In this document: one piece after another, positions 2,757-21,087 of the stretch | Layout: every line of letters starts with the position of its first letter | How positions within the stretch are numbered: the stretch's first letter is position 1 | DNA from: an uncultured Bacilli bacterium | GTDB lineage: Bacteria > Bacillota_I > Bacilli_A > RF39 > UBA660 | Assembly (NCBI GenBank): GCA_947632355.1 | Contig: CANROY010000003.1 | Span: forward strand, 5,646 to 37,645 | Reading direction: 5' to 3' | Length of the DNA: 32,000 nucleotides | Translations under genes and position numbers: made by a program | Notes under the pieces: generated by a model | Seen by the model: only the letters and a program-made list of their open reading frames with translations | Told to the model about the DNA's origin: nothing | Database searches by the model: none

Positions 2757-2810
2757 TTTAGGTTACTCCTTTTTTAATTTTATGTTATAATAGTTTTTAA
2801 GGTGGGTAGT

Positions 2811-5363
2811 ATGAAACGTAGTGAAGTAGACAAAGAAAAATTAAGCCCTGGTATGCGTCAATATTATGATATAAAAGAAGAGTATAAAGAAGAATTATTG
2901 TTTTATCGTTTAGGGGATTTTTATGAGTTGTTTTTTGAAGATGGAGAAATCGCCTCTCGTGAACTTGAACTTACATTAACAAGTAAAAATGCTGGATTAG
3001 AAGAAAGAGTACCAATGTGTGGTGTTCCTTTTCATTCTGTAAAACCCTATATTGAGAAATTAGTAAATAAAGGCTATAAAGTGGCGATTTGTGAACAGCT
3101 AGAAGACCCCAAAAATGCTAAAGGAATGGTAAAACGTGGAGTTGTCGAGGTCATCAGTAAAGGTTCTATTGTGGATTCTGACCTTTTAAATGAACACGAC
3201 CACAACTATATTGCGAGTGTTCTAGATTTTTCATTCACCTATGTTTTATGTTACGCTGATATCTCAACTGGTACTCTAAACGTTATGAACGTACAACACA
3301 ACAAAGAAAAATTATTAAATGAGATTCTAAATTTAAAAATCAAAGAAGTGTTATTAAAAGACAATACGGACGTGGAACTCATTAGTACATTAAAAGGCAA
3401 TTATGGAATTGAAGTCTCTATTTCAGATGGATTTTTAGAAGAAGGAATTGAAAAATTACTAAACACAGTAGAAGATATTCGTTTTAAAGAAGGAATTAAA
3501 CATATTCTTTACTATTTAATTGTTCGAGAACTAAAAAGTATCGACCACATTAAGAGTGTGAATGTCATTAATAGCGATGATTATTTAGAGATGGATGTTC
3601 ATACCATTCGTAATTTAGAGTTAGTAGAAACCTTACGTTTAAAAGAAAGAATGTATTCTTTACTATGGCTTTTAGATAAAACAAAAACCTCTATGGGAAG
3701 TCGTAAGTTAAAAGAGTATTTAATTCATCCTTTAAAAGATAAAAAACGTATTGAAGAACGTTTCGATAAAATAACGGTTTTAAATAATGAATTTATTTTA
3801 AAAGACCGCCTAAGAGATGCACTGTACGAAGTCTATGACATAGAACGACTTTGTGGAAAAGTAGCGTGTGGTTCTTTAAACGCTAGAGATTTATTACAAC
3901 TAAAAAATAGTTTAAAAGTCTTACCAACAATAAAAGAAATTGTTTCAGAATTAAAGTTTGATTATGAAATCAATACCCATAACGAACTTTATGAGTTACT
4001 GGAAAGAGGAATTTATGAAGAACCTCCTGTTACCTTAAAAGAAGGTTATTTAATTAAAGAAGGGTATAACGAAGAATTAGATGAACTAAAAAGTATTCGT
4101 AGTGGTGGTAAAAACTTTATTGCAGAGTTTGAAAATAAATTAAAAGAAAGTACCGGAATTAAAAATTTGAAAGTAGGATACACAAGAGTATTTGGTTATT
4201 TCATTGAAGTGAGTAAAGGACAAGTAAAAGAAATTAGTCCGGATTTAAATTGGGAAAGAAGACAAACTCTTGCTAATGCCGAGCGATTTATTTCTCCAGA
4301 ACTAAAAGAAAAAGAAGCCCTTATCTTAAACGCCGAAGAAAAAATCATTGAACTTGAATACAATTTATTTAATGAGATAAAAGAGCAAGTAAAACAAGTT
4401 TTAATTTCTTTAAAAGATACAGCAGAAATCTTAAGCGAACTAGATGCTTTAGCAAGTTTAGCGGTTTGTGCAGAAGAATATGGTTTTGTAAGACCTACGT
4501 TAAATGAAAATCATACGATTGATATCAAAGATGGTTTTCATCCGGTTATTATGAAAGTCAGTAGTGAAGCATTTGTTCCCAATGATTGTTGCATGAATGA
4601 ACAAATTAGTACTCTTTTAATAACAGGACCAAATATGAGTGGTAAATCAACCTATATGAGACAACTCGCCATTATTGTGATTATGGCCCAAATGGGTTCT
4701 TTTGTTCCAGCAAAAAGTGCAAATTTACCGATTATTGATAAAATATTTACACGAATCGGAGCAAGTGATGACTTAGTAAGTGGAGAATCGACGTTTATGG
4801 TGGAAATGAATGAAGCCAAGAATGCTTTAGTAAATGCAACTGAAAATAGTCTAGTCTTATTTGATGAACTCGGTCGTGGTACAGCAACATATGATGGTAT
4901 GAGTCTTGCCTATGCTATACTTGAATATGTCAATGAACATATAAAATGTAAGACGCTTTTTTCAACCCATTATCACGAACTAACAGCTTTAGAAAGAGAA
5001 ATACCAAGTATTAAAAATATTCACGTATCAGCATATGAAGAAGATGGTAAAATTACGTTCTTACATAAAATTAAAAATGGTGCCGTTGATAAAAGTTATG
5101 GAATTCACGTAGCCAAACTTGCTGGAATGCCAAAAGAAGTAACAGATAGAGCAACAACTATTCTAGCATCTTACGAGCAAAAAAAGGAAAAAAATAGTAG
5201 CAATGATAAAGTGCAACTCTCTATGCAATTTGAAGAACCAAAACAAGAAGATCCGATTCAAAAATTCTTAAATGGTGTAGACCCTGTTTATATGACCCCT
5301 ATTGAAGCCATCAATACTTTATACGAATTAAAGAAATTAATGAGTGATAGTAAAAAAATGTAA
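2811..5363 (+). CDS. mutS: DNA mismatch repair protein MutS
   Basis: Domain I carries GDFYELFFEDG. The Walker A motif is TGPNMSGKST, and DELGRGT and STHYHEL are present. ATG 2811 follows the SD AAGGTGG (2799-2805). A TGtTATAAT extended -10 lies at 2783-2791. Confidence 0.97.
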   Translation: MKRSEVDKEKLSPGMRQYYDIKEEYKEELLFYRLGDFYELFFEDGEIASRELELTLTSKNAGLEERVPMCGVPFHSVKPYIEKLVNKGYKVAICEQLEDPKNAKGMVKRGVVEVISKGSIVDSDLLNEHDHNYIASVLDFSFTYVLCYADISTGTLNVMNVQHNKEKLLNEILNLKIKEVLLKDNTDVELISTLKGNYGIEVSISDGFLEEGIEKLLNTVEDIRFKEGIKHILYYLIVRELKSIDHIKSVNVINSDDYLEMDVHTIRNLELVETLRLKERMYSLLWLLDKTKTSMGSRKLKEYLIHPLKDKKRIEERFDKITVLNNEFILKDRLRDALYEVYDIERLCGKVACGSLNARDLLQLKNSLKVLPTIKEIVSELKFDYEINTHNELYELLERGIYEEPPVTLKEGYLIKEGYNEELDELKSIRSGGKNFIAEFENKLKESTGIKNLKVGYTRVFGYFIEVSKGQVKEISPDLNWERRQTLANAERFISPELKEKEALILNAEEKIIELEYNLFNEIKEQVKQVLISLKDTAEILSELDALASLAVCAEEYGFVRPTLNENHTIDIKDGFHPVIMKVSSEAFVPNDCCMNEQISTLLITGPNMSGKSTYMRQLAIIVIMAQMGSFVPAKSANLPIIDKIFTRIGASDDLVSGESTFMVEMNEAKNALVNATENSLVLFDELGRGTATYDGMSLAYAILEYVNEHIKCKTLFSTHYHELTALEREIPSIKNIHVSAYEEDGKITFLHKIKNGAVDKSYGIHVAKLAGMPKEVTDRATTILASYEQKKEKNSSNDKVQLSMQFEEPKQEDPIQKFLNGVDPVYMTPIEAINTLYELKKLMSDSKKM

Positions 5364-5429
5364 ATTTACAGTTAAAATTTTTAAAAATAAATAGGATACG
5401 TTATAATATAATTAAATTAGGAGGGCTTT

Positions 5430-6228: not shown

Positions 6229-6288
6229 GAGAGCATATAAATGTTTACTAATTTGGTGTTTTTTTGTATAATTTAATTGGTGGTTTTT

Positions 6289-6684
6289 ATGGCTTACAAG
6301 AGAAGTGAATTAAGAGAAAAATGTATGGTAATTTTATACCAATACGATTTAATGAAAAAGAATAAAGTAGAAGTGAGTCTTGATGATTTAATCAAAGACA
6401 ATATTGATATTGAAAATGAGTTTGTGAAAGATATTGTGTATGGAGTCGTTACACACCAAACCGAATTAGATGAATTAGCCAACAAATATATGAAAGATTG
6501 GACCATCGACCGTTTGGATAAAACCGGTGCTTCTATTTTACGTATGGCGATCTTTGAACTAAAATATACTGATACACCGGAAGTTGTTGTGATTAATGAA
6601 GCCATTGAATTATCCAAAAAATATAGTGATGATGCCGTACGAAAAATGATTAATGCTGTTTTAGATAAAATAATACGTGAATAG
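6289..6684 (+). CDS. nusB: Transcription antitermination factor NusB
   Basis: RSELREKCMVILYQYDL, WTIDRLDKTGASILRMAIFELKY and VVINEAIELSKKY are typical NusB sequences. The nusB-xseA-xseB synteny supports the call. ATG 6289 is preferred over TTG 6277. Confidence 0.9.
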   Translation: MAYKRSELREKCMVILYQYDLMKKNKVEVSLDDLIKDNIDIENEFVKDIVYGVVTHQTELDELANKYMKDWTIDRLDKTGASILRMAIFELKYTDTPEVVVINEAIELSKKYSDDAVRKMINAVLDKIIRE

Positions 6685-6695
6685 GAGAATGCCTT

Positions 6696-8042
6696 ATGAT
6701 AGGAACCGAAGAAAAGTATATAAAAATAAGTGATTTGAATGAATATATTAAAGTGATGTTTGATGAAAATAGTTTTCTTCGTAAAATCTATTTAAAAGGC
6801 GAAATATCCAACTTTAAAAATCATTCTCGAGGACATTTATATTTTACACTAAAAGATGAAACATCTAGAATTAGTGCTGTTATGTTTTACAATAATGCTC
6901 TTTCTTTACAATTCAAACCGGAAGATGGAATGAATGTGTTAGTAGAGGGGCGTATTTCTTGCTATCCTGCTCAAGGAACGTATCAAATTTACGTTGAGAA
7001 AATGGAAATGGATGGCTTAGGAAATCTTTATATTGAATATGAAAAATTAAAAAAGAAACTTGCAAGTGAAGGATTATTCGATGCCAAATACAAAAAGCCA
7101 ATCCCGAAATATCCAAAGAAAATTGGTATTATTACGGCCCCTACAGGAGCAGCCATTCGTGATATTTTAAGTACCATAAAAAGAAGGTATCCGATTTGTG
7201 AAACCATTCTATTTCCTTCCTTAGTCCAAGGTTCTTCTGCGGCCCCAGAAATTGTAAGACAACTAAAAAAAGCCAATGAATTTGATTTAGATGTCATTAT
7301 TTGTGGTCGTGGTGGAGGTTCCATTGAAGACTTGTGGGCATTTAATGAAGAGAGTGTTGCTCGTGCTATTTTTGAATCCAAAATTCCTGTCATTAGTGCT
7401 GTTGGCCACGAAGTTGATTTTACGATTGCCGATTTTGTAGCAGATTTACGTGCTCCAACACCAACAGGTGCTGCTGAAATGGCTGTTCCAACTAAGTATG
7501 ATACTCTATGTTTACTAGAAGAAAAAAGGCGTCAAGCAAATACCTTAATCAAAAATCATTTAAAAAGAAAAGCGGAAAAGATAGAAAGTCTAAAATCAAG
7601 TTTTATTTTAAAAAATCCCATGACGTTATACGAAGTAAAAGAGCAAAAACTCGATTTATTAATGGATAACTTGTATAAAACGATGATGGCAAAGATAAAG
7701 GATAGTGAGAATCGTTTCTTGCATATCAAACAAAGTACGATATTAAAACGACCGCTTGATTCTTTTCAACTATCAAAAACAAAAATAAAAACGATGGAAG
7801 AAAAGTTAAAAGCTGAAGTTCAAACGATTTTAAAGCAAAAAAATCACGAACATCAATTACTCTTAAATACTTTAAAACTAGTAAATCCCCTAAATATACT
7901 AGATAAAGGGTATAGTTTGGTACTAAAAGATGGAAAAGTCGTAAAAGAAAAAGAAATCAATATCAATGATGAAATAGAAATTAAATTAACGAATGCTGAA
8001 ATTAAGGCGATTGTAAAGGAGAAGAAAGAATGGAAAATTTAA
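6696..8042 (+). CDS. xseA: Exodeoxyribonuclease VII large subunit
   Basis: The OB-fold N-terminus reads KGEISNFKNHSRGHLYFTLKD. IGIITAPTGAAIRDIL, GRGGGSIEDLWAFNEE and ISAVGHEVDFTIADFVAD are conserved XseA motifs. Confidence 0.95.
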   Translation: MIGTEEKYIKISDLNEYIKVMFDENSFLRKIYLKGEISNFKNHSRGHLYFTLKDETSRISAVMFYNNALSLQFKPEDGMNVLVEGRISCYPAQGTYQIYVEKMEMDGLGNLYIEYEKLKKKLASEGLFDAKYKKPIPKYPKKIGIITAPTGAAIRDILSTIKRRYPICETILFPSLVQGSSAAPEIVRQLKKANEFDLDVIICGRGGGSIEDLWAFNEESVARAIFESKIPVISAVGHEVDFTIADFVADLRAPTPTGAAEMAVPTKYDTLCLLEEKRRQANTLIKNHLKRKAEKIESLKSSFILKNPMTLYEVKEQKLDLLMDNLYKTMMAKIKDSENRFLHIKQSTILKRPLDSFQLSKTKIKTMEEKLKAEVQTILKQKNHEHQLLLNTLKLVNPLNILDKGYSLVLKDGKVVKEKEININDEIEIKLTNAEIKAIVKEKKEWKI

Positions 8043-8257
8043 GTTTTGAACAATCATTAGAAAAATTAGAAACAATTGTACACGAATTAGAAAATGGGTC
8101 TATTGAATTAGATAAAGCCATTGAAAAGTACACAGAAGCAATGAAATTAGTAAAATCTTGTAGTGAAAAGTTAAATGAAGCCACGGATAAAGTCAATAAA
8201 ATCTTAAAAGAAAATGGAGAATTAGTTGATTTTGCCATTGAAAATAATGAAGAATAG
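8030..8257 (+). CDS. xseB: Exodeoxyribonuclease VII small subunit
   Basis: The 75-aa protein starts LSFEQSLEKLETIVHELENGSIELDKAIEKYTEAMKL. It overlaps the xseA 3' end. Confidence 0.9.
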   Translation: MENLSFEQSLEKLETIVHELENGSIELDKAIEKYTEAMKLVKSCSEKLNEATDKVNKILKENGELVDFAIENNEE

Positions 8258-8265
8258 GTGATTCG

Positions 8266-9690
8266 ATGAAAGAATTAGTACGTGATATTACGAGCCGTGA
8301 TGTAGATTTTGCTAAGTGGTACACTGATGTTGTAAGAGTTGCTGATTTAGTAGATTATTCTTCGGTAAAGGGAAGTATGATTATTCGTCCTTATGGCTAT
8401 GCAATTTGGGAAAATATGATGAACATTCTTGACCAAGAATTTAAAAAACGTGGAACACTCAATGTGCAAATGCCTATGTTTATTCCAGAAAGCTTATTAA
8501 ATGTCGAAAAAGAACACGTAGAAGGATTTGCTCCTGAAGTGGCTTGGGTAACCCACGGAGGAAATGAAAAGTTAGAAGAAAGAATGTGTGTAAGACCTAC
8601 AAGTGAAGTCTTATTCTGCGACCATTTTAAAAAAATAATTAAATCCTATCGTGATTTACCCCTTATTTATAACCAATGGTGTACGATTGTAAGATGGGAA
8701 AAGACAACAAGACCTTTCTTACGTAGTCGTGAAATTTTATGGCAAGAAGGACATACGATGCATGCAAACCGTGAAGAAGCCATAGCTAAAACCAAAGAAA
8801 TGCTAAAAGTCTATGAAGATTTTCAAAGAAATTATCTTGCTTTACCCGTAATTGTTGGTAAAAAGAGCGATAAAGAAAAATTTGCGGGGGCAGAAGAAAC
8901 CTATACCATCGAAGCCATGATGTATGATGGTGTTGCTTTACAAAACGGAACAAGTCATTATTTTGGTCAAGGTTTTAGTAAAGCCTTTGGAATTGAGTTT
9001 TTAAATAAAGAAAATAAGTTAGAAAATCCTTATCAAACCAGTTGGGGTTGTACAACTCGTATGATTGGGGCTATTATTATGACCCATAGTGATGATTATG
9101 GACTTGTACTTCCACCAAAAATTGCTCCTATTAAAGTCAATTTAATTCCAATTGGAAAAAATGAAGAAGTTCTAAAAACAATGGAAGAAATTAAAGCATC
9201 TTTAGATAAGGAAAATATTACCAATACTATAGATACAAGTGATAAAACACCAGGATTTAAATTTGCAGAATCTGAAGTAAAGGGATATCCTATTCGTATG
9301 GAACTAGGCCCTAGAGACTTAGAACAAGGCGTTATTACGTTAGTTCGAAGAGATACATTAGAAAAGAAGACTGTTTCTATAAGTGATGTTGTTCGTGAAG
9401 TAGAAACTTTATTAGATGATATTCAAACCAATCTTTATAATCGTGCTTTAGAAAGACGTAATTCTATGTTGTATGATGCCCAAACTTGGGAAGAATTTTT
9501 ATCACTTGCCAATGTAAAACCAGGATTTATCAAAGTCAATTGGTGTGGGGATGTTTCGTGTGAAGATAAAATCAAAAATGAAACCGGTTATAAATCTCGT
9601 TGTATTATAGAAGAAGAAAAAGCGGATGGAAAATGCGTTTGCTGTGGAAAAGAAGCCAAATGCAAAATCTACTTTGGTAAACAATACTAA
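8266..9690 (+). CDS. proS: Prolyl-tRNA synthetase, short archaeal/eukaryote-like type without an editing insertion
   Basis: The class II aaRS motifs include RPTSE and FLRSREILWQEGHT. The 474-aa length and the Cys-rich C-terminal domain (WCGDVSCEDK...CVCCGKEAKC) fit this type. Confidence 0.9.
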   Translation: MKELVRDITSRDVDFAKWYTDVVRVADLVDYSSVKGSMIIRPYGYAIWENMMNILDQEFKKRGTLNVQMPMFIPESLLNVEKEHVEGFAPEVAWVTHGGNEKLEERMCVRPTSEVLFCDHFKKIIKSYRDLPLIYNQWCTIVRWEKTTRPFLRSREILWQEGHTMHANREEAIAKTKEMLKVYEDFQRNYLALPVIVGKKSDKEKFAGAEETYTIEAMMYDGVALQNGTSHYFGQGFSKAFGIEFLNKENKLENPYQTSWGCTTRMIGAIIMTHSDDYGLVLPPKIAPIKVNLIPIGKNEEVLKTMEEIKASLDKENITNTIDTSDKTPGFKFAESEVKGYPIRMELGPRDLEQGVITLVRRDTLEKKTVSISDVVREVETLLDDIQTNLYNRALERRNSMLYDAQTWEEFLSLANVKPGFIKVNWCGDVSCEDKIKNETGYKSRCIIEEEKADGKCVCCGKEAKCKIYFGKQY

Positions 9691-9770
9691 CAATATTTGG
9701 TAAAAACCAATTATTGTTTTTATTTTTCTTTTTTTCTTGTTAAAACTACTACTAGTGAGGTAGTGATAGT

Positions 9771-10745
9771 ATGGAAAGATTAAAAATCATTTTAAGTTTT
9801 TTATTGCTTTTTTATCCAAGTATTGTTCTTGCCTATTCGAGTAGAATCATTGTAGGTGGAGAAAATATTGGAATCAATATTCATAGTAAAGGCGTATTAG
9901 TTGTCGGTTTTTACAAAGTAAATGGTAAGGACGTAGCAACAGAGCCTGCTATTCAAATAGGAGATTACATTACAAAAGTCGGTAATGTTGAAATCAATTC
10001 GATTAATGAACTAACCAATGAGATAGAACGACAAATAAAGGATTCCAAAATCGAATTAACCTTTACGCGTGATGGAAAAGAATATCAAAGCAATATGTCT
10101 TTAATTGAACAAGACCATATTTTTAAAACAGGTTTATATGTAAAAGATAGTATTACAGGAATTGGGACTCTTACCTATATTGACCCAGAAAGTAAAATAT
10201 TTGGGGCTTTAGGGCACGAAATTATTGAAGCGAATTCCAATAAACGAATTGAAGTTAAAACCGGGACGATTTTTAATAGTACCATTACCGGTATTCATAA
10301 AAGTAGTGATGGAACACCAGGAGAGAAAAAAGCCAATTTTAAACCAAATGTTGTGTATGGAACGATTAACAAAAATACTGAATATGGACTTTTTGGAACT
10401 TATAACGCTACTTTAGATGCTTCAAGTACTTATGAAGTAGCAACAAAAGAAGAAGTGAAAGTTGGAGATGCAACCATTCGTACCGTTTTAAATGGCGAGG
10501 AAGTAAAAGAATATTCTATTTATATTAATAAAATCAATGAATATAACAAGATTAAAAACTTATCATTTGAAATTACGGATTCTGAACTTTTAGACAAAGC
10601 CGGAGGGATTGTGCAAGGAATGAGTGGAAGTCCTATTATTCAAAATGGTAAAATAATTGGTGCCGTTACCCATGTTATAGTCGATAACGTAAAAACAGGC
10701 TATGGTATCTTTATTACTACAATGTTAGAAGAAGGCGAACAATAA
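9771..10745 (+). CDS. spoIVB: SpoIVB-like serine peptidase (S55) with signal peptide and PDZ domain
   Basis: The N-terminal signal/anchor is followed by the PDZ-like segment IQIGDYITKVGNVEINS. The catalytic region GMSGSPIIQNGKIIGAVTHV is typical of SpoIVB. Confidence 0.85.
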   Translation: MERLKIILSFLLLFYPSIVLAYSSRIIVGGENIGINIHSKGVLVVGFYKVNGKDVATEPAIQIGDYITKVGNVEINSINELTNEIERQIKDSKIELTFTRDGKEYQSNMSLIEQDHIFKTGLYVKDSITGIGTLTYIDPESKIFGALGHEIIEANSNKRIEVKTGTIFNSTITGIHKSSDGTPGEKKANFKPNVVYGTINKNTEYGLFGTYNATLDASSTYEVATKEEVKVGDATIRTVLNGEEVKEYSIYINKINEYNKIKNLSFEITDSELLDKAGGIVQGMSGSPIIQNGKIIGAVTHVIVDNVKTGYGIFITTMLEEGEQ

Positions 10746-14481: not shown

Positions 14482-14784
14482 ATGAAAGCAATATTTGTTA
14501 CAGGTGGAAAACAATATTATGTAGCAGAAGGTGACGTTCTTTACGTTGAAAAATTACCAAACGAAGTTGGTAGTGAAGTAACTTTTACAGATGTTTTATT
14601 TGCCAATGGTGTTGCAGGTGATCCTTATGTAAAAGGTGCTAAAGTGGTTTGTACAGTAGAAAAACACGGAAAACAAAAGAAAATTATTATTTTCAAGTAT
14701 AGACCAAAAAAGAAATCTCGTAAAAAACAAGGTCATAGACAACCTTATACAAAACTTGTCGTTAAAAAAATAGAAGTTAAATAA
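14482..14784 (+). CDS. rplU: 50S ribosomal protein L21
   Basis: [25 protein letters not shown] and the basic C-terminus fit L21. The SD is AAGGAGG. Confidence 0.97.
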
Positions 14785-14786
14785 GT

Positions 14787-15098
14787 ATGATAAAAGTATG
14801 TATAGTAAAAAGAAATAGTAGCATCGAAAAAATTCAAATAAAAGGTCATGCCGGTTATGCAGAATATGGATACGATATTGTTTGTAGTGCCGTATCAAGT
14901 GTTGTTACAACAACGATTAATGCTCTATATGCATTTGAAGAATCCATTGAAGTTTTTGATAAAGAAACTTTAGAAATAGTAGTAAAAAAACACGATAACA
15001 TAACGGATACTTTACTTGAAAATATGATTGCTATGTTAAAAGGAATTGAAAATCAATATAAAGAAAATATAAGAATGGAGGAGAAAAACGAATGTTAA
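14787..15098 (+). CDS. prp: Ribosomal-processing cysteine protease Prp (YsxB)
   Basis: [18 protein letters not shown] is the catalytic His/Cys region. The gene lies between rplU and rpmA. Confidence 0.9.
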
Positions 15099-15376
15099 GA
15101 TTTGCGTTTAATTTACAACGTTTTGCTCACATTAAAGCTCAAGGTTCTACTAAAAACGGCCGTGATAGTGCTGGTAGAAGACTAGGTGCTAAAGCAAGTG
15201 ATGGAGAATTTGTTAGTGCTGGTTCTATTCTATATCGTCAAAGAGGTACAAAAATTTATCCAGGAACAAACGTTGGAATGGGAAAAGATCACACTTTATT
15301 TGCAAAAATAGATGGTCTTGTTAAATTCGAAAGATTAGGAAGAGATAAAAAGAAAGTAAGCGTTTACGAAAAGTAA
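15092..15376 (+). CDS. rpmA: 50S ribosomal protein L27 with a Prp-cleaved N-terminal extension
   Basis: [12 protein letters not shown] is followed by [20 protein letters not shown]. This is the Firmicutes-type propeptide plus the conserved L27 core. Confidence 0.97.
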
Positions 15377-15475: not shown

Positions 15476-17473
15476 TTGAAAATCGTCCAATGGGGGGGGG
15501 GTATATTAGAAAGTAATAAAAAAAAGAACCCCAAAAGACGACTCGAAATAATGATTAGTTTGTTAAGTATTGCAGTACTTATTACAGTAGTGTCTTTTAG
15601 TTATGCTTACATAAAAACAAATAAAGAAGAAAAGGATGTCAATGTACTAGGAACTGAGTGTATCAATCTTGAAATGGAAGACTTAAGTAAAGGAATAACT
15701 TTACAACATACATTTCCAGTAAGTGATGCAACAGGAAAATCATCAACACCTTATACATTTAAATTAACCAATGAATGCGGAGTAGGAGTGGATTATGAAA
15801 TTCACTTAAGAGTAGAGGATGTTGAGGAAGGGCAAAAGAAAATAGCTGCAAAGAACATTGCAACTATGATTGATAGTAATGAAAAAGTAGTATTAACGAG
15901 TGAAAAAAAAGTAATCAATGAAGAAGAATCAGATAAAGAAGAATATAAGATTAGTAGTGAAAAATTAACATTAGAGGCTTATCAAGAAATAGAACATGAA
16001 GTAAGAATATGGTTAGATGAGAGTGCAGGAAATGATAGTCAAAATGGTATATTCAAAAGTAAAATCGTGATAGAAGCAATTCAAAATCAAACCGCTTCTA
16101 TTTATAAAGAAACAATTCTACACGGTGCAGATCCGGTGTTGAATAATGAAGAAGAACCAATTGCGATGTTAACAGCAAATGAAGTAGCTGAAGCTCCAAC
16201 AACAACAGATCAATTAATACCTGTCACAATAGATGAAACAACAGGAGAAGTAAAAAGAGCTGATTTATATACGGAATGGTATGATTATGAGACCAAGAAA
16301 TGGGCGAATGCAGTTATCTTAGTCGATAATAATAAAGCAAATGAAATACAACCAGGACAAACGATACAAGAAAATGATATTGAAAGTTATTTTGTATGGA
16401 TACCAAAATATAGTTATAAGTTATTTGATATGGGAAATACGGAAACAACAGTTACAAATGTTGCTAAAAAAGAAAAGCCAATCGAAATTCGTTTTGGAAC
16501 AACAAATACAAGTGATAGTGTAAGTGATGAATGTAAAACACCAACAACATCAGGAGAGATTGGAACTTGTCAAGTGGGTGATTGGATGACGCATCCAGCA
16601 TTCTTAGCATTTGATGCAGATGGGTTATGGGTTGGTAAGTTTGAAACGGGTTACGAAGGTGCTGATAGTACAGCAAATGCAAATAAAAATGAAGTATCTC
16701 CTAACAAAGTAATCATAAAACCAAATGTTTATAGTTGGAGAAATATAACCGTAGGAAACGCATTTAAAACAGCAAAAAACTATGAACCAACTTTACAAAG
16801 TCATATGATGAAGAACACCGAATGGGGAGCTGTTGCCTATTTATCTCATAGTATTTATGGAACATGTGATGGTAGTTCTTGTACTGAAATAAGGATAAAT
16901 AACAGTAGTAGTTATTTAACAGGGGTAAGTGCAAAAACTGTACCTGATTCTGGTTGGAATCAATATAATGGATATGCAGTAACAACTCCAAACACGGAAA
17001 ATGACAAATCTTATGTTTATCCAAAGAGTCAAAAATCGAGTACAACTTTTAATAACACCGGAATCTTTGATATGAGTGGAGGTTCTTGGGAGTATGTTAT
17101 GGGTTATATGAGTGGTAATGTTGGAAGTAGTGGATTAACAGAAGAAACTGATTTAACAGAAGCAAATTCTAAATATTTTGATAAATATGAAAATAAAACT
17201 GATACGGAATGGAGTAAAAGAATCTTAGGCGATGCAACAGGAGAATTAGAGCCATTTGGAATGAAGCAATACAATACAAGTAATAATAGAATTAATTCAT
17301 GGTACGAGGATTGGGCGTGGTTTCCTAACTCTAGTTTACCGTGGTTCAAACGTGGTGGCGCTCGCTATGACGGTGTTACGGCTGGTGTGTTCGCGTTCAG
17401 TCGTCACACGGGTGCTGTCGATGGCAGCGACAGTTTTCGCCTCGTTTGTGCTCCAACGCACGCGAGTGCGTAA
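15476..17473 (+). CDS. DGR target (variable) protein: N-terminal signal-anchor and C-terminal C-type-lectin/FGE-like fold carrying the VR
   Basis: This is the long ORF in the track, but TTG 15476 has no SD. The only good SD/ATG (AAGGAGAG, then ATG 15445) is one frame off and joins this frame only if the G10 tract (15492-15501) has 9 or 12 G. A basic stretch plus TM helix (KKKNPKRRLEIMISLLSIAVLITVVSF) is present. The FGE-like segment reads HMMKNTEWGAVAYL. The C-terminus WFKRGGARYDGVTAGVFAFSRHTGAVDGSDSFRLVCAP is the VR. Confidence 0.85.
   Translation: MKIVQWGGGILESNKKKNPKRRLEIMISLLSIAVLITVVSFSYAYIKTNKEEKDVNVLGTECINLEMEDLSKGITLQHTFPVSDATGKSSTPYTFKLTNECGVGVDYEIHLRVEDVEEGQKKIAAKNIATMIDSNEKVVLTSEKKVINEEESDKEEYKISSEKLTLEAYQEIEHEVRIWLDESAGNDSQNGIFKSKIVIEAIQNQTASIYKETILHGADPVLNNEEEPIAMLTANEVAEAPTTTDQLIPVTIDETTGEVKRADLYTEWYDYETKKWANAVILVDNNKANEIQPGQTIQENDIESYFVWIPKYSYKLFDMGNTETTVTNVAKKEKPIEIRFGTTNTSDSVSDECKTPTTSGEIGTCQVGDWMTHPAFLAFDADGLWVGKFETGYEGADSTANANKNEVSPNKVIIKPNVYSWRNITVGNAFKTAKNYEPTLQSHMMKNTEWGAVAYLSHSIYGTCDGSSCTEIRINNSSSYLTGVSAKTVPDSGWNQYNGYAVTTPNTENDKSYVYPKSQKSSTTFNNTGIFDMSGGSWEYVMGYMSGNVGSSGLTEETDLTEANSKYFDKYENKTDTEWSKRILGDATGELEPFGMKQYNTSNNRINSWYEDWAWFPNSSLPWFKRGGARYDGVTAGVFAFSRHTGAVDGSDSFRLVCAPTHASA
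15492..15501 (+). repeat. G10 homopolymer at the 5' end of the DGR target gene; candidate slipped-strand phase-variation tract
   Basis: Ten consecutive G occur in a strongly AT-rich genome. The tract sits exactly between the SD-preceded ATG 15445 and the main ORF frame. Confidence 0.6.
17321..17455 (+). repeat. DGR variable repeat (VR)
   Basis: The VR aligns over 135 bp with 17649-17783 at an offset of 328. The 11 mismatches are at 17336, 17337, 17360, 17361, 17364, 17366, 17400, 17405, 17420, 17427 and 17429. All correspond to A in the TR. Confidence 0.95.
17456..17471 (+). promoter_or_regulatory. GC-rich hairpin directly abutting the VR 3' end; candidate DGR target-recognition element
   Basis: ACGCAC (17456-17461), loop GCGA, then GTGCGT (17466-17471). 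The hairpin overlaps the stop codon (17471-17473) and is absent downstream of the TR. Confidence 0.6.
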
Positions 17474-17540
17474 CTGTGTACTTTCGTATGATAATTGGAA
17501 CAGTTAATTTGTATAATTTTCGTAATACAAATTGTTATTG

Positions 17541-17578
17541 TTCGCCCAATTCCTATCTTGTTTAAGGAATTGGGCGAA
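17541..17578 (+). other. Perfect 13-bp stem-loop between VR and TR
   Basis: TTCGCCCAATTCC (17541-17553), a 12-nt loop, then GGAATTGGGCGAA (17566-17578). No U tract follows immediately. Confidence 0.6.
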
Positions 17579-17648
17579 TAGAAAAATTTTTGGTCTTAAT
17601 AGTTTATATAGATTAAGACAGGGATTAGATTGTAATAGAACGTTTGAG

Positions 17649-17783
17649 TTTCCTAACTCTAGTAAACCGTGGTTCAAACGTGGTGGCAATCACAATGACG
17701 GTGTTACGGCTGGTGTGTTCGCGTTCAATCGTAACACGGGTGCTGTCAATGGCAACAACAGTTTTCGCCTCGTTTGTGCTCCA
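17649..17783 (+). repeat. DGR template repeat (TR)
   Basis: The TR is noncoding. In the VR frame it reads FPNSSKPWFKRGGNHNDGVTAGVFAFNRNTGAVNGNNSFRLVCAP and contains 8 AAY codons. By my count it has 29 adenines, 11 of which are substituted in the VR. The last 22 nt before the terminal CCA contain no A. Confidence 0.95.
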
Positions 17784-17960
17784 GACTATGGTATAAAAAA
17801 GAAAATCCACGCAAACATTTCTTTTCATTTCAAAATAAAGTTCATGGACTTTATGAATATGTTTGCCATAGAAATCTAATTCCTTTTTGGCTAAAACCAA
17901 ATAAACACATGAACAGTATGGTTATGGCAAGTAGTAAAATGGCGAAAGTCATTCCATACG

Positions 17961-17989
17961 AAAACTACCATTTATTGTTGGTAGTTTTT
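17961..17989 (+). terminator. Terminator-like hairpin closing the TR-spacer module
   Basis: AAAACTACCA (17961-17970), an 8-nt loop, then TGGTAGTTTT (17979-17988), followed by a T. Confidence 0.45.
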
Positions 17990-18005
17990 GGAAGGAAAGG
18001 TATTT

Positions 18006-18194
18006 ATGGAAATAAATTTAAAAGAAATAAGAAAATCTTGTGGATTTACGCAAGAAGAACTGGCAAAAAAACTAGGGGTAACCCAACAACAATATTCAAG
18101 GTATGAAACCAAAACAAATAAAATAACATTAGAAATGTTTTTAAAAATAATAAAAGTATGTAAATTAGAGATAAAAATAGAAAAAAATAAGTAA
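18006..18194 (+). CDS. XRE-family helix-turn-helix protein inside the DGR cassette
   Basis: MEINLKEIRKSCGFTQEELAKKLGVTQQQYSRYE is the classic HTH_3 pattern. The SD is GGAAGGAAAGG (17991-18000). ATG 18006 is preferred over the TTG 17988 start in the track. Confidence 0.8.
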   Translation: MEINLKEIRKSCGFTQEELAKKLGVTQQQYSRYETKTNKITLEMFLKIIKVCKLEIKIEKNK

Positions 18195-18209
18195 TAGAAG
18201 TATTCAAAG

Positions 18210-18236
18210 AAGTTTTGTTAGTAGCAAAACTTTTTT
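18210..18236 (+). terminator. Rho-independent terminator after the HTH gene
   Basis: AAGTTTTG (18210-18217), loop TTAGTAG, then CAAAACTT (18225-18232), followed by TTTT. Confidence 0.55.
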
Positions 18237-18399
18237 CGTGCACGTAATTATGCACAATTTGTCTAAAAATGCTTTTAATTTGTTTTTTTGCCTTAAAAAT
18301 GTATTTTAGTTCTAAATAATAAACTTTTAAACGAAAAATAACCTATTTTAAGTAAAAAATAGATATAATTTCTATAGAATAAAAAGGAAGTATTGTAGT

Positions 18400-18759
18400 A
18401 TGAGTGAAATTTATAATCAATATAAAAAATTAAAAGAAGAGAATAAGAAAAAAATGTATTTATTTAAAGTTGGTAATTTTTATATTTTTTTAGATGAGGA
18501 TGCAGAAAAAATAAATGATTATGTTGTATTAAAGAAAACACCATTTTGTAAAGAAGTAATGAAATGCGGTTTTCCTGTAAATAGATTAGAAGATTATATG
18601 AAAGTTTTTCATAATCATAAGTTACCAATTTCGATAATAGAAAATGAAAAAAAGTGTGATTTGGAACAAGTTATACAACATCTTAGAAAAATAGATTTGA
18701 ATAAATTAACTCCTATAAAAGCACTAAACCTTCTATATGAAATAAAAGAGATGCTATGA
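18400..18759 (+). CDS. MutS-like (MSL) DGR accessory protein: MutS domain I-like N-terminus plus MutS C-terminal tail motif
   Basis: YLFKVGNFYIFLDEDAEKIN...MKCGFPVNRLEDYMKVF aligns with [20 protein letters not shown]...[17 protein letters not shown] of the bona fide MutS in this window. The C-terminus IDLNKLTPIKALNLLYEIKEML aligns with the MutS C-terminus VDPVYMTPIEAINTLYELKKLM. The stop overlaps the avd start (ATGA). Confidence 0.75.
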   Translation: MSEIYNQYKKLKEENKKKMYLFKVGNFYIFLDEDAEKINDYVVLKKTPFCKEVMKCGFPVNRLEDYMKVFHNHKLPISIIENEKKCDLEQVIQHLRKIDLNKLTPIKALNLLYEIKEML

Positions 18760-19115
18760 TGAAAAATGTAGAAGATTTACTTATTTATAAGCAATATATT
18801 GAACTTATTTATTATACAGAAATGATTTTGGATAAATATCCAAAAAGTGAGCGTTTTGCTATTGTTACGGCGATTAAAAATAATACTTATGATGGGATGA
18901 GAAGTTTACTAAGTGCGTATAAAGAATATCAAAAAGAAAAAAAATATCATTATTTAAATCAATTAGATACAACACTTAAAATGTTAAAAGTCATGATTCG
19001 AGTATCCTATAAACGAAAGTATATAAATGTTAAAAATTATACGGCTTGGAGCAAAAAAATAACCAATATTGGAAATTTACTTGGAGGATGGATGAAGTCG
19101 TGTCAAAGACAATAA
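18756..19115 (+). CDS. avd: DGR accessory variability determinant (Avd), four-helix-bundle family
   Basis: The 119-aa basic protein contains LIYKQYIELIYYTEMILDKYPKSERFAIVTAIKNN...GGWMK, which is typical of the Avd / 23S-IVS four-helix-bundle family. It lies immediately upstream of the RT and overlaps it. Confidence 0.85.
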   Translation: MMKNVEDLLIYKQYIELIYYTEMILDKYPKSERFAIVTAIKNNTYDGMRSLLSAYKEYQKEKKYHYLNQLDTTLKMLKVMIRVSYKRKYINVKNYTAWSKKITNIGNLLGGWMKSCQRQ

Positions 19116-20152
19116 AAAATATATTTTATAAAAAATTAACCTTTATTAAACTCATTGAAGCCCATGATAGGGCAAGAGAAGGAAAAAATACACGACCTGA
19201 AATTATTCGATTTGAAATGAATTTAGAAAGTAATATTATCAATTTACTTTATAAAATAAAAAGTAAGCAGTATAAAATTGGTAAATATCGAGAATTTTAT
19301 GTATATGAGCCGAAAGAAAGACTTATAAAATCTTTACCTTATATAGATAGAATTGTACATCAATGGTATGTAGAAGAATTTATTAAACCATTTTTTATTC
19401 CTCGCTTTATTAAAGATTCTTATGCTTGTTTAAAAGATAAAGGAGGACATAAAGCTGTTTTAAGAATGCAAGATTTTATGCGTCGTATGAAAAGAAAATA
19501 TAAAAATTATTATGTTTTAAAATGTGATATAAAAAAATATTTTTATAATATTGATAAAAACATTTTATATTCGATACTAGAAAAATCAATAACGGATAAA
19601 GAATTATTAAATTTTTCCAAAGTAATTATATTTGATAATGATGAAAAGAAAGGGATTCCTATTGGCAATTATACAAGTCAATTTTTTGCTAATATTTATT
19701 TAAATGAATTAGACCATTATGTTAAAGAAGATTTAGGACTACCTTATTACATAAGATATATGGATGATTTTATACTTCTTTTACCTACAAAAGATGATGC
19801 AAAGCAAATAAAAGAAAAAATAAAAAATTTTTTAGAACAAAATTTAAAATTAGAATTAAATGCTAAAAGTAAATATTATCCTAGTAAAATGGGTATTGAT
19901 TTTTGCGGGTATCGTATTTTTGAAACGCATTTATTAATTCGTAAAAGAAGTAAAGCAAAAATAAAAAAATTAATTAAATCGTGGAATTGTTTTTATAAAG
20001 AAGGAAATTTAAATTTAGAAAATGTGATTCAAAGATGGAATGCGTGGAGAGGACATATTTCCCACGCTAATACTTATCATTTAGAGAATAAATATTTGGA
20101 TAAAATACTTTTTAAAGAATCCTTAAAAACGAAAAAAGAAACTTCAATTTAA
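19088..20152 (+). CDS. DGR-type reverse transcriptase
   Basis: RT motifs are present: PKERLIKSLPYIDRIVHQW, LKCDIKKYFYNID, the DGR-signature IGNYTSQFFANIYLNELD, and YIRYMDDFILL (YMDD). The start is ambiguous: ATG 19088, or GTG 19100 after GGAGG at 19083-19087. The start of track ORF 19046 is unlikely. The gene overlaps the avd 3' end. Confidence 0.93.
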   Translation: MDEVVSKTIKNIFYKKLTFIKLIEAHDRAREGKNTRPEIIRFEMNLESNIINLLYKIKSKQYKIGKYREFYVYEPKERLIKSLPYIDRIVHQWYVEEFIKPFFIPRFIKDSYACLKDKGGHKAVLRMQDFMRRMKRKYKNYYVLKCDIKKYFYNIDKNILYSILEKSITDKELLNFSKVIIFDNDEKKGIPIGNYTSQFFANIYLNELDHYVKEDLGLPYYIRYMDDFILLLPTKDDAKQIKEKIKNFLEQNLKLELNAKSKYYPSKMGIDFCGYRIFETHLLIRKRSKAKIKKLIKSWNCFYKEGNLNLENVIQRWNAWRGHISHANTYHLENKYLDKILFKESLKTKKETSI

Positions 20153-21087
20153 GCAGTTTCTTTTATTTTCTCTGTATTTTTAAAATTTAATTTAGCGATT
20201 TCTTTTAGTTTTTCAATTCCGTATTTAGAAACAATTTCTTTTCCTACCGTATCAACAACAGTATTAGCCCCTTTAGGAATCTCCATATTCAATTCTTTTG
20301 ATAATTCTTCCATTCTTTTTAAAAAGAAATAACGACTGATGACACTTGCAGCAGCAACACTTGCACATTTACTTTCAGCTTTGGTCGTAAAGGTAATGTT
20401 TTCTACTTTTTCGGTTGCTTCTAAAATATGTTCAAAGTATTTTCTTGGATACACAAATTGATCCACAACAATTTTTTGATAAGGGTATTGTTCTTCTTTA
20501 TGAGTAATCGCATATAAAACTTTGTTGTGTAAAATGGCTTTTATTTTATTCATATTATAACCCATGCTTTGATATTTATTATATTCTTCATTATTTAAAG
20601 TGAGTGTAACATAAGGAATTTCTTTTAATAGAGTAGGAGCAATTTTAAGTATTTTTTCATCCGTTAATTTCTTAGAATCTTTAACACCTAGTTCGTTAAT
20701 TAAATCTATTTTTTCTTTTGCAACATAAGTTGCCGTTACAATAATAGGCCCAAAATAATCTCCTGTACCCACTTCATCCGAACCAATAGTAGACATACTA
20801 TAATAGTAGTTTAATTCTTCCTTATATTTTTCTTTTTCCTTTTTATCTTCATTAATATCAATGGTACGATTGTTTAACTTCTTTTCTAAATCTGCCCAAA
20901 TATTCGCATCAACATCTGCACTTATGCCTTGAAACATAACTTTACCACTTTCATATAAAGTGATTATGGTATCCGCTTCATCGGCTTGAAAAATAGCATA
21001 AGGAGGCGTTTTTTCTCTTTTTACATCTTTATAGTATTCAATCATTTTGGCTTTAACATTATCACTTACTTTAAATACGATTGTCAT
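20149..21087 (-). CDS. rnhC: Ribonuclease HIII
   Basis: The 312-aa protein has an N-terminal TBP-like domain and the catalytic GSDEVGTGDYFGPIIV motif. Its stop codon shares the palindrome TTAA (20149-20152) with the RT stop. Confidence 0.9.
   Translation of the reverse strand: MTIVFKVSDNVKAKMIEYYKDVKREKTPPYAIFQADEADTIITLYESGKVMFQGISADVDANIWADLEKKLNNRTIDINEDKKEKEKYKEELNYYYSMSTIGSDEVGTGDYFGPIIVTATYVAKEKIDLINELGVKDSKKLTDEKILKIAPTLLKEIPYVTLTLNNEEYNKYQSMGYNMNKIKAILHNKVLYAITHKEEQYPYQKIVVDQFVYPRKYFEHILEATEKVENITFTTKAESKCASVAAASVISRYFFLKRMEELSKELNMEIPKGANTVVDTVGKEIVSKYGIEKLKEIAKLNFKNTEKIKETA

What the first reader, a model, noticed from the sequence alone, without database searches (positions are those of the whole stretch)
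18400..18759. Mini-MutS encoded in the RT operon: MutS domain I fused directly to the MutS C-terminal tail, with the mismatch-sensing Glu lost
The 119-aa ORF is translationally coupled to avd, with the stop and start overlapping in ATGA. It aligns with both ends of the genuine MutS present in this same window. The N-terminal alignment is KMYLFKVGNFYIFLDEDAEKIN..KCGFPVNRLEDYMKVF against [38 protein letters not shown]. The C-terminal alignment is IDLNKLTPIKALNLLYEIKEML against VDPVYMTPIEAINTLYELKKLM. Everything in between is missing, including the connector, core, clamp and ATPase domains. In the Phe-X-Glu mismatch motif the Phe is kept (GNFYI) but the Glu is replaced by Ile. MutS-like accessory genes have been noted in DGR surveys, but their role is unknown. 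A domain-I-only protein could bind or mask the A-mismatched cDNA/VR heteroduplex. It could also compete with the host MutS.
Basis: partly seen in the sequence, partly recalled or inferred. Interest (0 to 1): 0.8.

Follow-up and report, generated by a model that had tools for sequence, protein, structure and literature searches.

The report
Mini-MutS (Msl) accessory gene of a DGR

Summary
ORF 18400-18759 (+) encodes 119 aa and overlaps avd by ATGA. It lies in a bona fide DGR: target gene with VR, TR, HTH, this ORF, avd and RT. All 11 TR/VR differences fall on TR adenines.

Residues 1-82 form the MutS domain I core. Support: Pfam MutS_I E 1e-11; AlphaFold pLDDT 91; the 50 listed Foldseek PDB hits are all MutS/MSH, with the best-aligned about 80 residues at rmsd roughly 1.3-2.5 Å.

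Residues 85-119 match the MutS C-terminal helix-loop-helix oligomerisation tail. Support: hhalign E 1.8e-6 against the host MutS tail; a weak precomputed Pfam MutS_C hit.

In about 250 relatives the wedge Phe is invariant and the Glu is never present. It is Ile, Leu or Val in nearly all relatives, and Asn in nearly all of a phage clade.

The gene is under purifying selection (median dN/dS 0.13). It lies next to a DGR RT in 72 of 80 genomes, in three different architectures.

It is not new in kind. It is the MSL/Msl accessory family of Wu et al. 2018, also noted in Bacteroides and Legionella DGRs. I did not find the tail and the Glu loss described in the papers searched.

The function is untested. 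My best guess (about 0.45) is an oligomeric, ATPase-less mismatch binder that shields the cDNA/VR heteroduplex from host mismatch repair.

The parts
18400..18759 (+). msl: 119-aa mini-MutS. Residues 1-82 are the MutS domain I core, 83-87 a linker, and about 88-118 a MutS C-terminal-type helix-loop-helix.
   Evidence: Family conservation.
18756..19115 (+). avd (accessory variability determinant); its start overlaps the msl stop.
   Evidence: Pfam bAvd 8.3e-21. NCBIfam DivGenRetAVD 83.3 bits against a cut-off of 80. phrog_3206 3.8e-25.
19046..20152 (+). DGR reverse transcriptase. This is the longest ORF; the gene call on the identical contig corresponds to a start at about 19088. It contains the IGNYTSQ motif.
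   Evidence: RVT_1 1.5e-16; phrog_1423 2.3e-113; translation.
17648..17783 (+). Template repeat (TR), 136 nt with 29 adenines.
17320..17455 (+). Variable repeat (VR) at the 3' end of the target gene. It has 11 differences from TR, all at TR adenines.
   Evidence: chance of all 11 falling on A is about 4e-8.
15476..17473 (+). DGR target gene, 665 aa, with an N-terminal hydrophobic anchor and the VR in its C-terminal domain.
   Evidence: Homologous targets lie upstream of msl in many related loci.
17988..18194 (+). Small HTH_3 (Xre-type) gene between TR and msl. It is specific to this element among the loci examined.
   Evidence: Pfam HTH_3 9.3e-17. No homologue between TR and msl in any of the other loci examined. 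An HTH_26-Msl fusion exists elsewhere (P0150).
2802..5363 (+). Host mutS (853 aa). It has all five MutS domains, an intact GDFYE motif, and a C-terminal QLSMQF motif followed by the helix-loop-helix tail. It is the comparison partner and presumed antagonist or ancestor type.

Best explanation
Identity (confidence about 0.95). The ORF is an Msl (MutS-like) accessory protein of a diversity-generating retroelement. It consists of the five-strand, three-helix core of the MutS mismatch-binding domain I, joined by a few residues to the helix-loop-helix that in MutS forms the C-terminal dimerisation/tetramerisation domain. It has no connector, core, clamp or ATPase domain. It is made from the same transcript as Avd and the RT, and is translationally coupled to Avd.

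Mechanism (inferred, confidence about 0.45). Msl oligomerises through its MutS-type tail and uses the invariant wedge phenylalanine to sit on the mismatches formed when adenine-mutagenised cDNA pairs with the parental VR strand. It lacks the Glu that lets MutS discriminate mismatches and license repair, and it lacks the ATPase and MutL-recruiting parts. It can therefore bind but cannot start repair. Its occupancy would keep host MutS from restoring the parental sequence and so raise the yield of mutagenic retrohoming.
For: Shown here:
- MutS_I fold: Pfam E 1e-11; PDB profile hits are all MutS; AlphaFold2 pLDDT 91.2 with secondary structure H-E-E-H-E-E-H-E then H-loop-H; all 50 listed Foldseek PDB hits are MutS/MSH, the best-aligned covering about 80 residues at rmsd roughly 1.3-2.5 Å.
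- Tail homology to MutS: BLASTP E 3e-4; hhalign 89.7% probability, E 1.8e-6; a second HMM stretch on full-length E. coli MutS 827-858; Pfam MutS_C weak hit.
- Family conservation over about 250 sequences: Phe27 100%; position 29 is Ile 83%, Leu 10%, Val 5% and never Glu. The hydrophobic positions of the tail and the acidic loop residues (D99; D/N/E101, equivalent to E. coli D833 and D835) are conserved. A phage clade keeps Phe and has Asn at the Glu position in 38 of 42 sequences (the others Ile or Tyr), never Glu.
- Purifying selection: median dN/dS 0.13 over 27 pairs.
- Tight DGR linkage in three architectures: msl-avd-RT in 65 of 80 species genomes and RT-msl in 7 of 80; convergent with the DGR in phage contigs. 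Most msl/avd junctions overlap.
- The host genome encodes an intact MutS.

From the literature:
- Host MutS lowers VR mutagenesis 5-10-fold in a Bacteroides DGR that has no Msl, in an all-or-nothing manner (10.1101/2024.11.15.621889).
- Glu38 substitutions abolish mismatch discrimination and DNA-to-ATPase signalling, while Phe36 is needed for specific binding (PMC3848065).
- The isolated E. coli MutS C-terminal domain 801-853 forms tetramers by itself. Its conserved part is the helix-loop-helix 823-853, and D835 in the acidic loop is needed for tetramers (PMC1636413).
Against: - No Msl has been tested for DNA binding or for an effect on retrohoming (searches found none).
- In MutS much of the DNA affinity comes from the clamp domains, which are absent here. 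Two regions that the cited review reports as unresolved in DNA-free Taq MutS but resolved in mismatch-DNA complexes (residues 57-66 and 95-107 as numbered there) are shortened or missing in Msl.
- The family is near neutral (median pI 6.55), unlike typical avid DNA binders.
- A close sister DGR (RT 56% and Avd 65% identical) has no msl (L089), so Msl is not essential.
- Intact orphan msl genes persist where avd-RT is gone (L066, L008).
- MutS was reported not to be required for the Bordetella phage DGR (PMC5758913).
Confidence: 0.45

Rival explanations
1. MutS poisoning by tail mimicry. The MutS-type helix-loop-helix lets Msl co-assemble with the C-terminal domains of host MutS. This caps or breaks up MutS tetramers, or tethers Msl to MutS. 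Host mismatch repair is weakened through protein-protein interaction rather than by Msl occupying mismatches.
For: - The tail is the best-conserved match to the host protein: 44% identity over 25 residues against 26% for domain I; hhalign E 1.8e-6.
- It keeps the acidic loop and hydrophobic face that mediate CTD oligomerisation in E. coli MutS (PMC1636413).
- Loss of MutS tetramerisation alone raises mutation frequency 5-10-fold in E. coli.
- Over the 19-residue core the tail is more like the host-lineage tail (10/19 identities) than the E. coli tail (8/19) (sequences).
Against: - It does not explain the invariant wedge Phe or the strict conservation of domain I.
- Global poisoning of MutS would make the host a mutator, which is costly for a chromosomal element in a small genome.
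- MutS tails are conserved in general, so similarity to the host tail is not specific evidence.
- No co-variation test was possible.
Confidence: 0.2
2. Positive integration factor. Msl acts in cDNA homing itself, independent of mismatch repair. For example, it could stabilise or recognise the imperfect cDNA/VR duplex, or bridge the Avd-RT-cDNA complex to the target.
For: - Translational coupling to avd, suggesting matched production.
- msl always co-occurs with avd (PMC5758913).
- Three RTs are reported with a weak MutS_I-like C-terminal extension, which suggests physical association with the RT (PMC5758913).
Against: - A sister DGR and most DGRs work without Msl.
- There is no evidence of an Avd- or RT-binding surface.
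- Msl appears with unrelated RT lineages (24-35% identity) and in an opposite-strand arrangement. This fits a generic DNA- or MMR-directed role better than a specific protein partner.
Confidence: 0.15
3. MMR recruitment. Msl marks the heteroduplex so that host repair copies the cDNA strand into the genome, using MMR rather than evading it.
For: The all-or-nothing outcome of heteroduplex processing reported in Bacteroides shows that repair direction matters.
Against: - Msl lacks the connector and ATPase regions through which MutS loads MutL, and it lacks the beta-clamp-like motif.
- mutS deletion raises, not lowers, DGR output.
Confidence: 0.05
4. Non-functional remnant of a mutS fragment, or a chance ORF carried along with the DGR.
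For: The gene is small, AT-rich (22% GC) and not essential in a sister element.
Against: - dN/dS of 0.13.
- 333 clusters at 50% identity with E<=1e-10, nearly all of the 150 best listed being full length.
- Invariant residues.
- A confident fold.
- Conserved position in three DGR architectures.
Confidence: 0.02

Closest known systems
MSL / Msl (MutS-like) accessory proteins of DGRs (Wu et al. 2018, NAR 46:11, Architecture D; Legionella and Bacteroides DGRs)
   Same: A small MutS-homologous protein (112-283 aa in the survey; 119 aa here) encoded inside a DGR cassette that also has avd and no HRDC gene. The family pI is near neutral (7.2 +/- 1.7 reported; median 6.55 here). Function is untested.
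   Different: Nothing that excludes membership. Features added here, and not found in the papers searched: the C-terminal 35 residues are the MutS C-terminal helix-loop-helix; the wedge Phe is invariant while the Glu is never present; this clade is abundant in uncultured gut Bacilli and in gut phage contigs.
Bacterial MutS (MutS1), including the host MutS at 2802-5363
   Same: Domain I fold and motifs (QY..LK helix, G-x-F-Y, DA, CG-x-P) and the terminal L-D-x-x-x-(L/M)-T-P-x-x-A-(L/I)-x-x-L-Y-x-(L/I)-K helix-loop-helix.
   Different: Lacks domains II-V (about 730 residues), including the clamp, the ATPase and the MutL-loading surfaces, and lacks the beta-clamp-like motif. Glu of Phe-X-Glu is replaced by Ile. 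NCBIfam mutS1 score is 37 bits against a cut-off of 642.
E. coli MutS Glu38 mutants (E38A/Q/T; PDB 1WBB, 1WBD, 1WB9)
   Same: Phe wedge retained and carboxylate lost. These mutants lose mismatch discrimination and DNA-to-ATPase signalling (PMC3848065). They appear among the structural matches.
   Different: They are laboratory point mutants of a full-length ATPase, not a natural two-module mini-protein.
Engineered MMR suppression in recombineering and reconstituted DGRs (mutS deletion, dominant-negative MutL E32K)
   Same: The proposed purpose is the same: to protect a mismatched ssDNA/cDNA-derived heteroduplex from repair (10.64898/2026.07.21.739853; PMC12875486).
   Different: Those are artificial and act globally. 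Msl would be a natural, element-encoded and possibly local solution. This is a functional analogy only and was not tested.
Stand-alone MutS domain I proteins of phages and giant viruses (e.g. BFVD A0A8S5PPT8, A0A8S5PL02)
   Same: A small protein with the MutS domain I fold (Foldseek E 7e-7 to 1e-4).
   Different: Their genomic context and the presence of a tail were not examined for these UniProt entries. The IMG/VR phage clade found here does have the tail and lies next to DGR RTs.

Membership tests
DGR MSL/Msl accessory family (Wu et al. 2018) | Small protein (reported range 112-283 aa) with detectable homology to MutS | tested here: met
   119 aa. Pfam MutS_I E 1e-11, above the gathering score. 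All 50 listed Foldseek PDB hits are MutS/MSH.
DGR MSL/Msl accessory family (Wu et al. 2018) | Encoded within a DGR cassette (RT plus a TR/VR pair with adenine-specific differences) | tested here: met
   RT with IGNYTSQ at 19046-20152. TR 17648-17783 and VR 17320-17455 differ at 11 positions, all TR adenines.
DGR MSL/Msl accessory family (Wu et al. 2018) | Co-occurs with avd and not with HRDC | tested here: met
   avd lies immediately downstream. No HRDC domain was found among the cassette proteins scanned. The RT-msl variant also has an Avd-like gene.
DGR MSL/Msl accessory family (Wu et al. 2018) | Direct sequence relationship to the 16 MSL proteins of the survey or to Bacteroides/Legionella Msl | not testable with these tools
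   The paper's supplementary sequences are not held. Membership therefore rests on the family's descriptive criteria.
Pfam MutS_I (PF01624) | Score above the curated gathering threshold | tested here: met
   45.5 bits against 20.6, residues 5-90, profile positions 4-93 of 113.
Pfam MutS_C (PF27441) | Significant match to the MutS C-terminal domain model | tested here: inconclusive
   The model is not in the local Pfam copy. The precomputed annotation lists it as weak for this product and for about a third of homologues. Independent support: hhalign against the host MutS tail gives 89.7% probability and E 1.8e-6; BLASTP gives E 3e-4.
Canonical mismatch-repair MutS (NCBIfam TIGR01070 mutS1) | Full five-domain architecture with ABC ATPase; score above the equivalog cut-off | tested here: not met
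   37.4 bits against a cut-off of 641.7. Only 119 aa. No MutS_II to MutS_V hits.
Canonical mismatch-repair MutS (NCBIfam TIGR01070 mutS1) | Phe-X-Glu mismatch-recognition motif | tested here: not met
   Phe is present but Glu is replaced by Ile. Glu is never present in about 250 relatives or in the phage clade.
Diversity-generating retroelement | Avd matching the DGR-specific model | tested here: met
   NCBIfam DivGenRetAVD 83.3 bits against a cut-off of 80.

The most novel reading that the evidence does not exclude
Msl is a natural, element-encoded anti-mismatch-repair factor that works through molecular mimicry of both ends of MutS. The tail would plug it into (or compete with) the host MutS C-terminal oligomerisation domain. 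The Glu-less domain I would occupy the mismatch site. Together these would blind repair locally at the retrohoming intermediate without making the whole cell a mutator. In effect it would be a natural counterpart of the dominant-negative MMR alleles used in recombineering.
Probability: 0.2. Interest if true: 0.8.

Novelty: new member of a known kind. Interest (0 to 1): 0.45.

Why it matters
How DGR cDNA information survives in the genome is still unresolved. Recent work shows that host MutS cuts DGR output several-fold. Msl is the one DGR accessory family that points directly at mismatch repair, yet it has never been tested.

This analysis makes the question concrete in four ways:
- It defines Msl as a two-module protein: the domain I core plus the MutS oligomerisation tail.
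- It names residues whose mutation should separate the competing models: F27, I29, D99/N101 and P105.
- It shows that the family is abundant, with 174 species genomes plus gut phage contigs.
- It identifies natural sister elements with and without msl.

If Msl proves to be a compact MMR blocker of about 120 aa, it could also be useful in DGR- or retron-based genome-diversification tools.

Tried and rejected
- Host MutS look-up by exact product, to read its precomputed Pfam hits: not on record, probably because of a different start call. PF27441 was identified as MutS_C from the Msl look-up instead.
- tblastn of Msl against the annotated phage and plasmid collections: no match at E 0.01. The IMG/VR scan did find a diverged phage clade.
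- Promoter/terminator consensus scan of 17400-20400: 19 promoter-like sites against 18.4 expected, so it is uninformative in this 29% GC DNA.
- Rfam scan of the whole window: nothing at gathering threshold.
- Supplementary MSL sequences of Wu et al.: not held, so no direct alignment with the published MSL set was possible.
- Hairpin after the VR (17456-17471): it folds, but z = -1.5 and 21 of 200 shuffles fold as well, so it is not significant alone.
- Beta-clamp motif in Msl: considered and rejected. The QLSMQF-like stretch of the host MutS lies upstream of the region retained in Msl.
- Stop-codon reassignment as the reason for the split RT in phage locus L093: rejected. The halves are in different frames, so it is a frameshift or an assembly error.
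- Homo- or hetero-oligomer structure prediction: not possible, because the tool takes single natural chains only.

Full report
What is at the coordinates

A purine-rich Shine-Dalgarno-like stretch (AAAGGAAG) precedes it. Its stop overlaps the start of the next gene (ATGA, or TGATG if the second ATG is used, as in the gene call on an identical metagenome contig).

The next gene is avd: Pfam bAvd 8.3e-21, and NCBIfam DivGenRetAVD 83.3 bits against a cut-off of 80. It is followed by an overlapping reverse transcriptase (RVT_1 1.5e-16; phrog_1423 2.3e-113) that carries the DGR-type IGNYTSQ motif.

Upstream lies a 665-aa target gene. Its last 136 nt (17320-17455) are repeated at 17648-17783. The two copies differ at 11 positions, and every difference falls on an adenine of the downstream copy. 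That copy has 29 A in 136 nt, so the chance of this pattern is about 4e-8. This is therefore a bona fide diversity-generating retroelement. The gene order is target(VR)-TR-HTH-msl-avd-RT. It is embedded among housekeeping genes (three small ORFs, which I take to be rplU, ysxB and rpmA, upstream; RNase HIII downstream) of a 29% GC genome.

Is it a mini-MutS?

Yes.
- Pfam MutS_I matches residues 5-90 at E 1e-11, 45.5 bits against a gathering score of 20.6.
- A profile of 31 family members hits only MutS proteins in the PDB at E<=1e-2, the next hits being eukaryotic Msh3 at E about 0.25.
- An AlphaFold2 model built on that alignment is confident (mean pLDDT 91.2). It shows helix-strand-strand-helix-strand-strand-helix-strand, which matches the five-strand, three-helix description of MutS domain I (PMC3848065). 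A helix-loop-helix follows (H88-96, H105-118).
- In Foldseek against the PDB, all 50 listed matches are MutS, MSH2, MSH3 or MSH6. The best-aligned cover about 80 residues at rmsd roughly 1.3-2.5 Å, all with probability 1.00.

The window's own MutS (2802-5363) has all five MutS domains.
- Residues 1-81 against MutS 14-98 (E 5e-7).
- Residues 95-119 against MutS 823-847 (E 3e-4).
With the family profile these become E 1.3e-7 and E 1.8e-6.

The same profile finds a second stretch at the extreme C-terminus of full-length E. coli MutS ([24 protein letters not shown]). Consistent with this, full-length entries outscore the 800-residue truncations (32.4 against 27-29 bits). The precomputed Pfam annotation lists PF27441, named MutS_C, as a weak hit on this product and on about a third of its homologues.

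In E. coli this region (823-853) is the conserved helix-loop-helix of the C-terminal domain. That domain dimerises and tetramerises on its own, and D835 in its acidic loop is required for tetramers (PMC1636413).

The host MutS stretch just before the matched region (QLSMQF) resembles a beta-clamp-binding motif. It is not retained in Msl. In E. coli numbering, Msl therefore corresponds to roughly MutS 13-97 plus 823-853.

The Phe-X-Glu motif

MutS GDFYE aligns with GNFYI. I aligned about 250 relatives from two searches. Phe27 is present in 100% of them. Position 29 is Ile in 83%, Leu in 10% and Val in 5%, and is never Glu. In a diverged clade on phage contigs the motif is GIFYN: Phe is kept, and the Glu position is Asn in 38 of 42 sequences (the others Ile or Tyr).

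Other near-invariant positions are Y8, K12, G25, D34, K45, K55-C-G-F-P59 and Y66. In the tail these are the hydrophobic positions (95, 98, 100, 103, 108, 109, 112, 115), T/S104, P105 and the loop residues D99 and D/N/E101. The last two align with E. coli D833 and D835.

How widespread and how tightly linked to DGRs

The representative library has 333 clusters (50% identity) at E<=1e-10. Most of the 150 best are 110-145 aa and match the profile end to end.

In one-genome-per-species GTDB, 174 genomes encode a relative. The best 80 are almost all uncultured gut Bacilli, "Tenericutes" or Erysipelotrichaceae MAGs. Their arrangements are as follows:
- 64 loci have msl-avd-RT in that order. L075 has the same order with a gap and a divergent RT, giving 65.
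- 7 loci have an RT only 24-27% identical to the window's, or avd-RT, immediately upstream of msl.
- 1 locus has msl-avd with no RT seen.
- 2 loci are cut by a contig end.
- 5 loci lack an adjacent same-strand RT.

I examined L009 as an example of the RT-msl type. It reads target(VR)-Avd-like-three TR-like copies-RT-msl, again with adenine-specific TR/VR differences.

An IMG/VR scan found 42 phage-like contigs with a 28-42% identical Msl that is full length and includes the tail. In 37 of them a DGR RT lies 2-3 kb away on the opposite strand.

Starting instead from the RT, three of four sampled relatives (56-63% identity) have msl-avd-RT. The fourth (L089; RT 56% and Avd 65% identical) has no msl by tblastn or by an unfiltered HMM search.

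Most msl/avd junctions overlap (49 of 56 by my start assignment). The median dN/dS over 27 moderately diverged pairs is 0.13.

Orphan but intact msl genes occur where a syntenic relative still has the RT (L008 against L009; L066 against L075). They look like products of DGR decay.

What is already known

Wu et al. (2018, PMC5758913) defined MSL (MutS-like) as one of four classes of DGR accessory genes. It occurred in 16 of 372 DGRs, as proteins of 112-283 aa with pI 7.2 +/- 1.7. It was always found with avd and never with HRDC, and it defines their Architecture D. One example is in the Legionella DGR.

Macadangdang et al. [quoted passage not shown] They also show that deleting host mutS raises VR mutagenesis 5-10-fold in an Msl-less DGR, in an all-or-nothing pattern.

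Reviews and later preprints mention MSL only as a hint that mismatch repair matters. I found no functional test of any Msl. The papers I could search do not state that the protein also carries the MutS C-terminal tail, or that the Glu is systematically lost. Public Pfam annotation does already show MutS_I plus MutS_C.

The window protein meets every descriptive criterion of the MSL family, with family median pI 6.55. It fails the criteria for a canonical MutS: 37 bits against the 642-bit mutS1 cut-off, with domains II-V and the Glu absent.

How it most likely works

Shown:
- The protein has a domain I fold with the stacking Phe kept and the Glu lost.
- It has a MutS-type oligomerisation tail and no ATPase, clamp or MutL-loading parts.
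- It is co-expressed with Avd and RT, is under purifying selection, and is linked to DGRs across unrelated RT lineages.
- The host has an intact mutS.

Established elsewhere:
- Phe36 is needed for specific mismatch binding.
- Glu38 is needed to tell mismatch from homoduplex and to signal to the ATPase (PMC3848065).
- The isolated C-terminal domain oligomerises (PMC1636413).
- MutS suppresses DGR output.

Inference. Msl forms dimers or tetramers through its tail and binds the mismatch-dense cDNA/VR heteroduplex, but it cannot license repair. This protects the mutagenised strand from MutS. I put this at about 0.45.

The main rival (0.2) is that the tail lets Msl co-assemble with host MutS and weaken it directly. 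The two are not exclusive.

A repair-independent role in cDNA integration (0.15) is favoured by the coupling to avd. It is disfavoured by Msl's promiscuity across RT lineages and gene orientations.

Evidence against DNA masking includes the near-neutral pI, the missing clamp domain, and the shortened or absent regions that the cited review reports as unresolved in DNA-free Taq MutS but resolved in mismatch-DNA complexes. The msl-less sister element shows that the gene is helpful at most, not essential.

Verdict

The anatomical interpretation is right. The functional interpretation is reasonable but untested. The thing itself is a new member of a known accessory family rather than a new kind.

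Its value lies in three things: a sharper definition of the family, residues that discriminate between models, and natural pairs with and without msl. Together these make a standing question about DGRs and mismatch repair directly testable.

Interest is 0.45. If the two-ended MutS mimicry model were shown to be true, the finding would deserve about 0.8.

Noticed in passing
L090-L131 (IMG/VR contigs); example L093: msl 5001-5384(+), RT 6706-7837(-), avd-like 7929-8492(-), TR 8635-8747, VR 8920-9032, target 8905-9840(-): A diverged phage-borne Msl clade (28-42% identity, with the tail retained) has Asn instead of Glu or Ile after the wedge Phe in nearly all members. It lies convergent to a DGR operon 2-3 kb away in 37 of 42 contigs. 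In L093 the RT is split by a frameshift.
   Followed up: partly
L009 3896-4687; L087 about 100-1110; L089 about 60-1913: Several related DGRs carry three to six tandem TR-like copies upstream of the RT or avd rather than a single TR. In L009 the third copy matches the VR best (87%). In the stretch I compared by eye, its differences fall on adenines of that copy.
   Followed up: partly
L066 1255-3294 against L075 3156-6984; L008 5968-6360 against L009 4830-6360: At two chromosomal sites (upstream of rnc-smc and upstream of rpsB-tsf), one genome has a complete DGR with msl. A relative keeps an intact msl (plus the target gene in L066) but has lost avd-RT. L075 also has a transposase-like ORF next to msl.
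   Followed up: partly
window 17988-18194; protein P0150: A small Xre-type HTH gene sits between TR and msl only in this element. Elsewhere an HTH_26-MutS_I fusion protein of 202 aa exists. Both hint at a recurrent link between an HTH regulator and msl.
   Followed up: no
protein P0183 (2323 aa): A giant predicted product has three DUF285 stretches, four MutS_I domains and an ArdC N-terminal domain. It scores as strongly as true Msl proteins. It may be a merged or read-through gene call across several cassettes, but this was not checked.
   Followed up: no
window 14482-15376 (three small ORFs I take to be rplU, ysxB, rpmA) just upstream of the target gene; L003/L004 8002-8855 (rplM, rpsI); L009 6535-8360 (rpsB, tsf); L086 1-759 and 5325-9041 (rpsF-ssb-rpsR and the S10 operon): In four independent insertion sites, these chromosomal DGRs sit directly beside ribosomal-protein operons. 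This could reflect gene-dense small genomes, or a preference for highly expressed or origin-proximal positions.
   Followed up: no
window 17456-17471: Immediately after the VR, and overlapping the target gene's stop, there is a 6-bp stem with a GCGA loop (ACGCAC-GCGA-GTGCGT, -6.9 kcal/mol). It is absent after the TR and resembles the hairpin described downstream of the Bordetella phage VR (recalled from memory, not checked here). It is not significant on its own (z = -1.5).
   Followed up: partly
window 5430-6194 and 6277-6684: mutS is not followed by mutL. The next ORFs (254 aa with no Pfam hit, then 135 aa not scanned) precede xseA. No mutL was seen among the window ORFs I scanned against Pfam, but only about a third of the larger ORFs were scanned. 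Whether this genome has a complete mismatch-repair system could not be checked.
   Followed up: no
window 18208-18236: An AT-rich stem (AAGTTTTG ... CAAAACTT) followed by a T-run lies right after the HTH gene. It looks like an intrinsic terminator that the GC-based scan missed. If so, msl-avd-RT would have its own promoter in 18240-18390.
   Followed up: no
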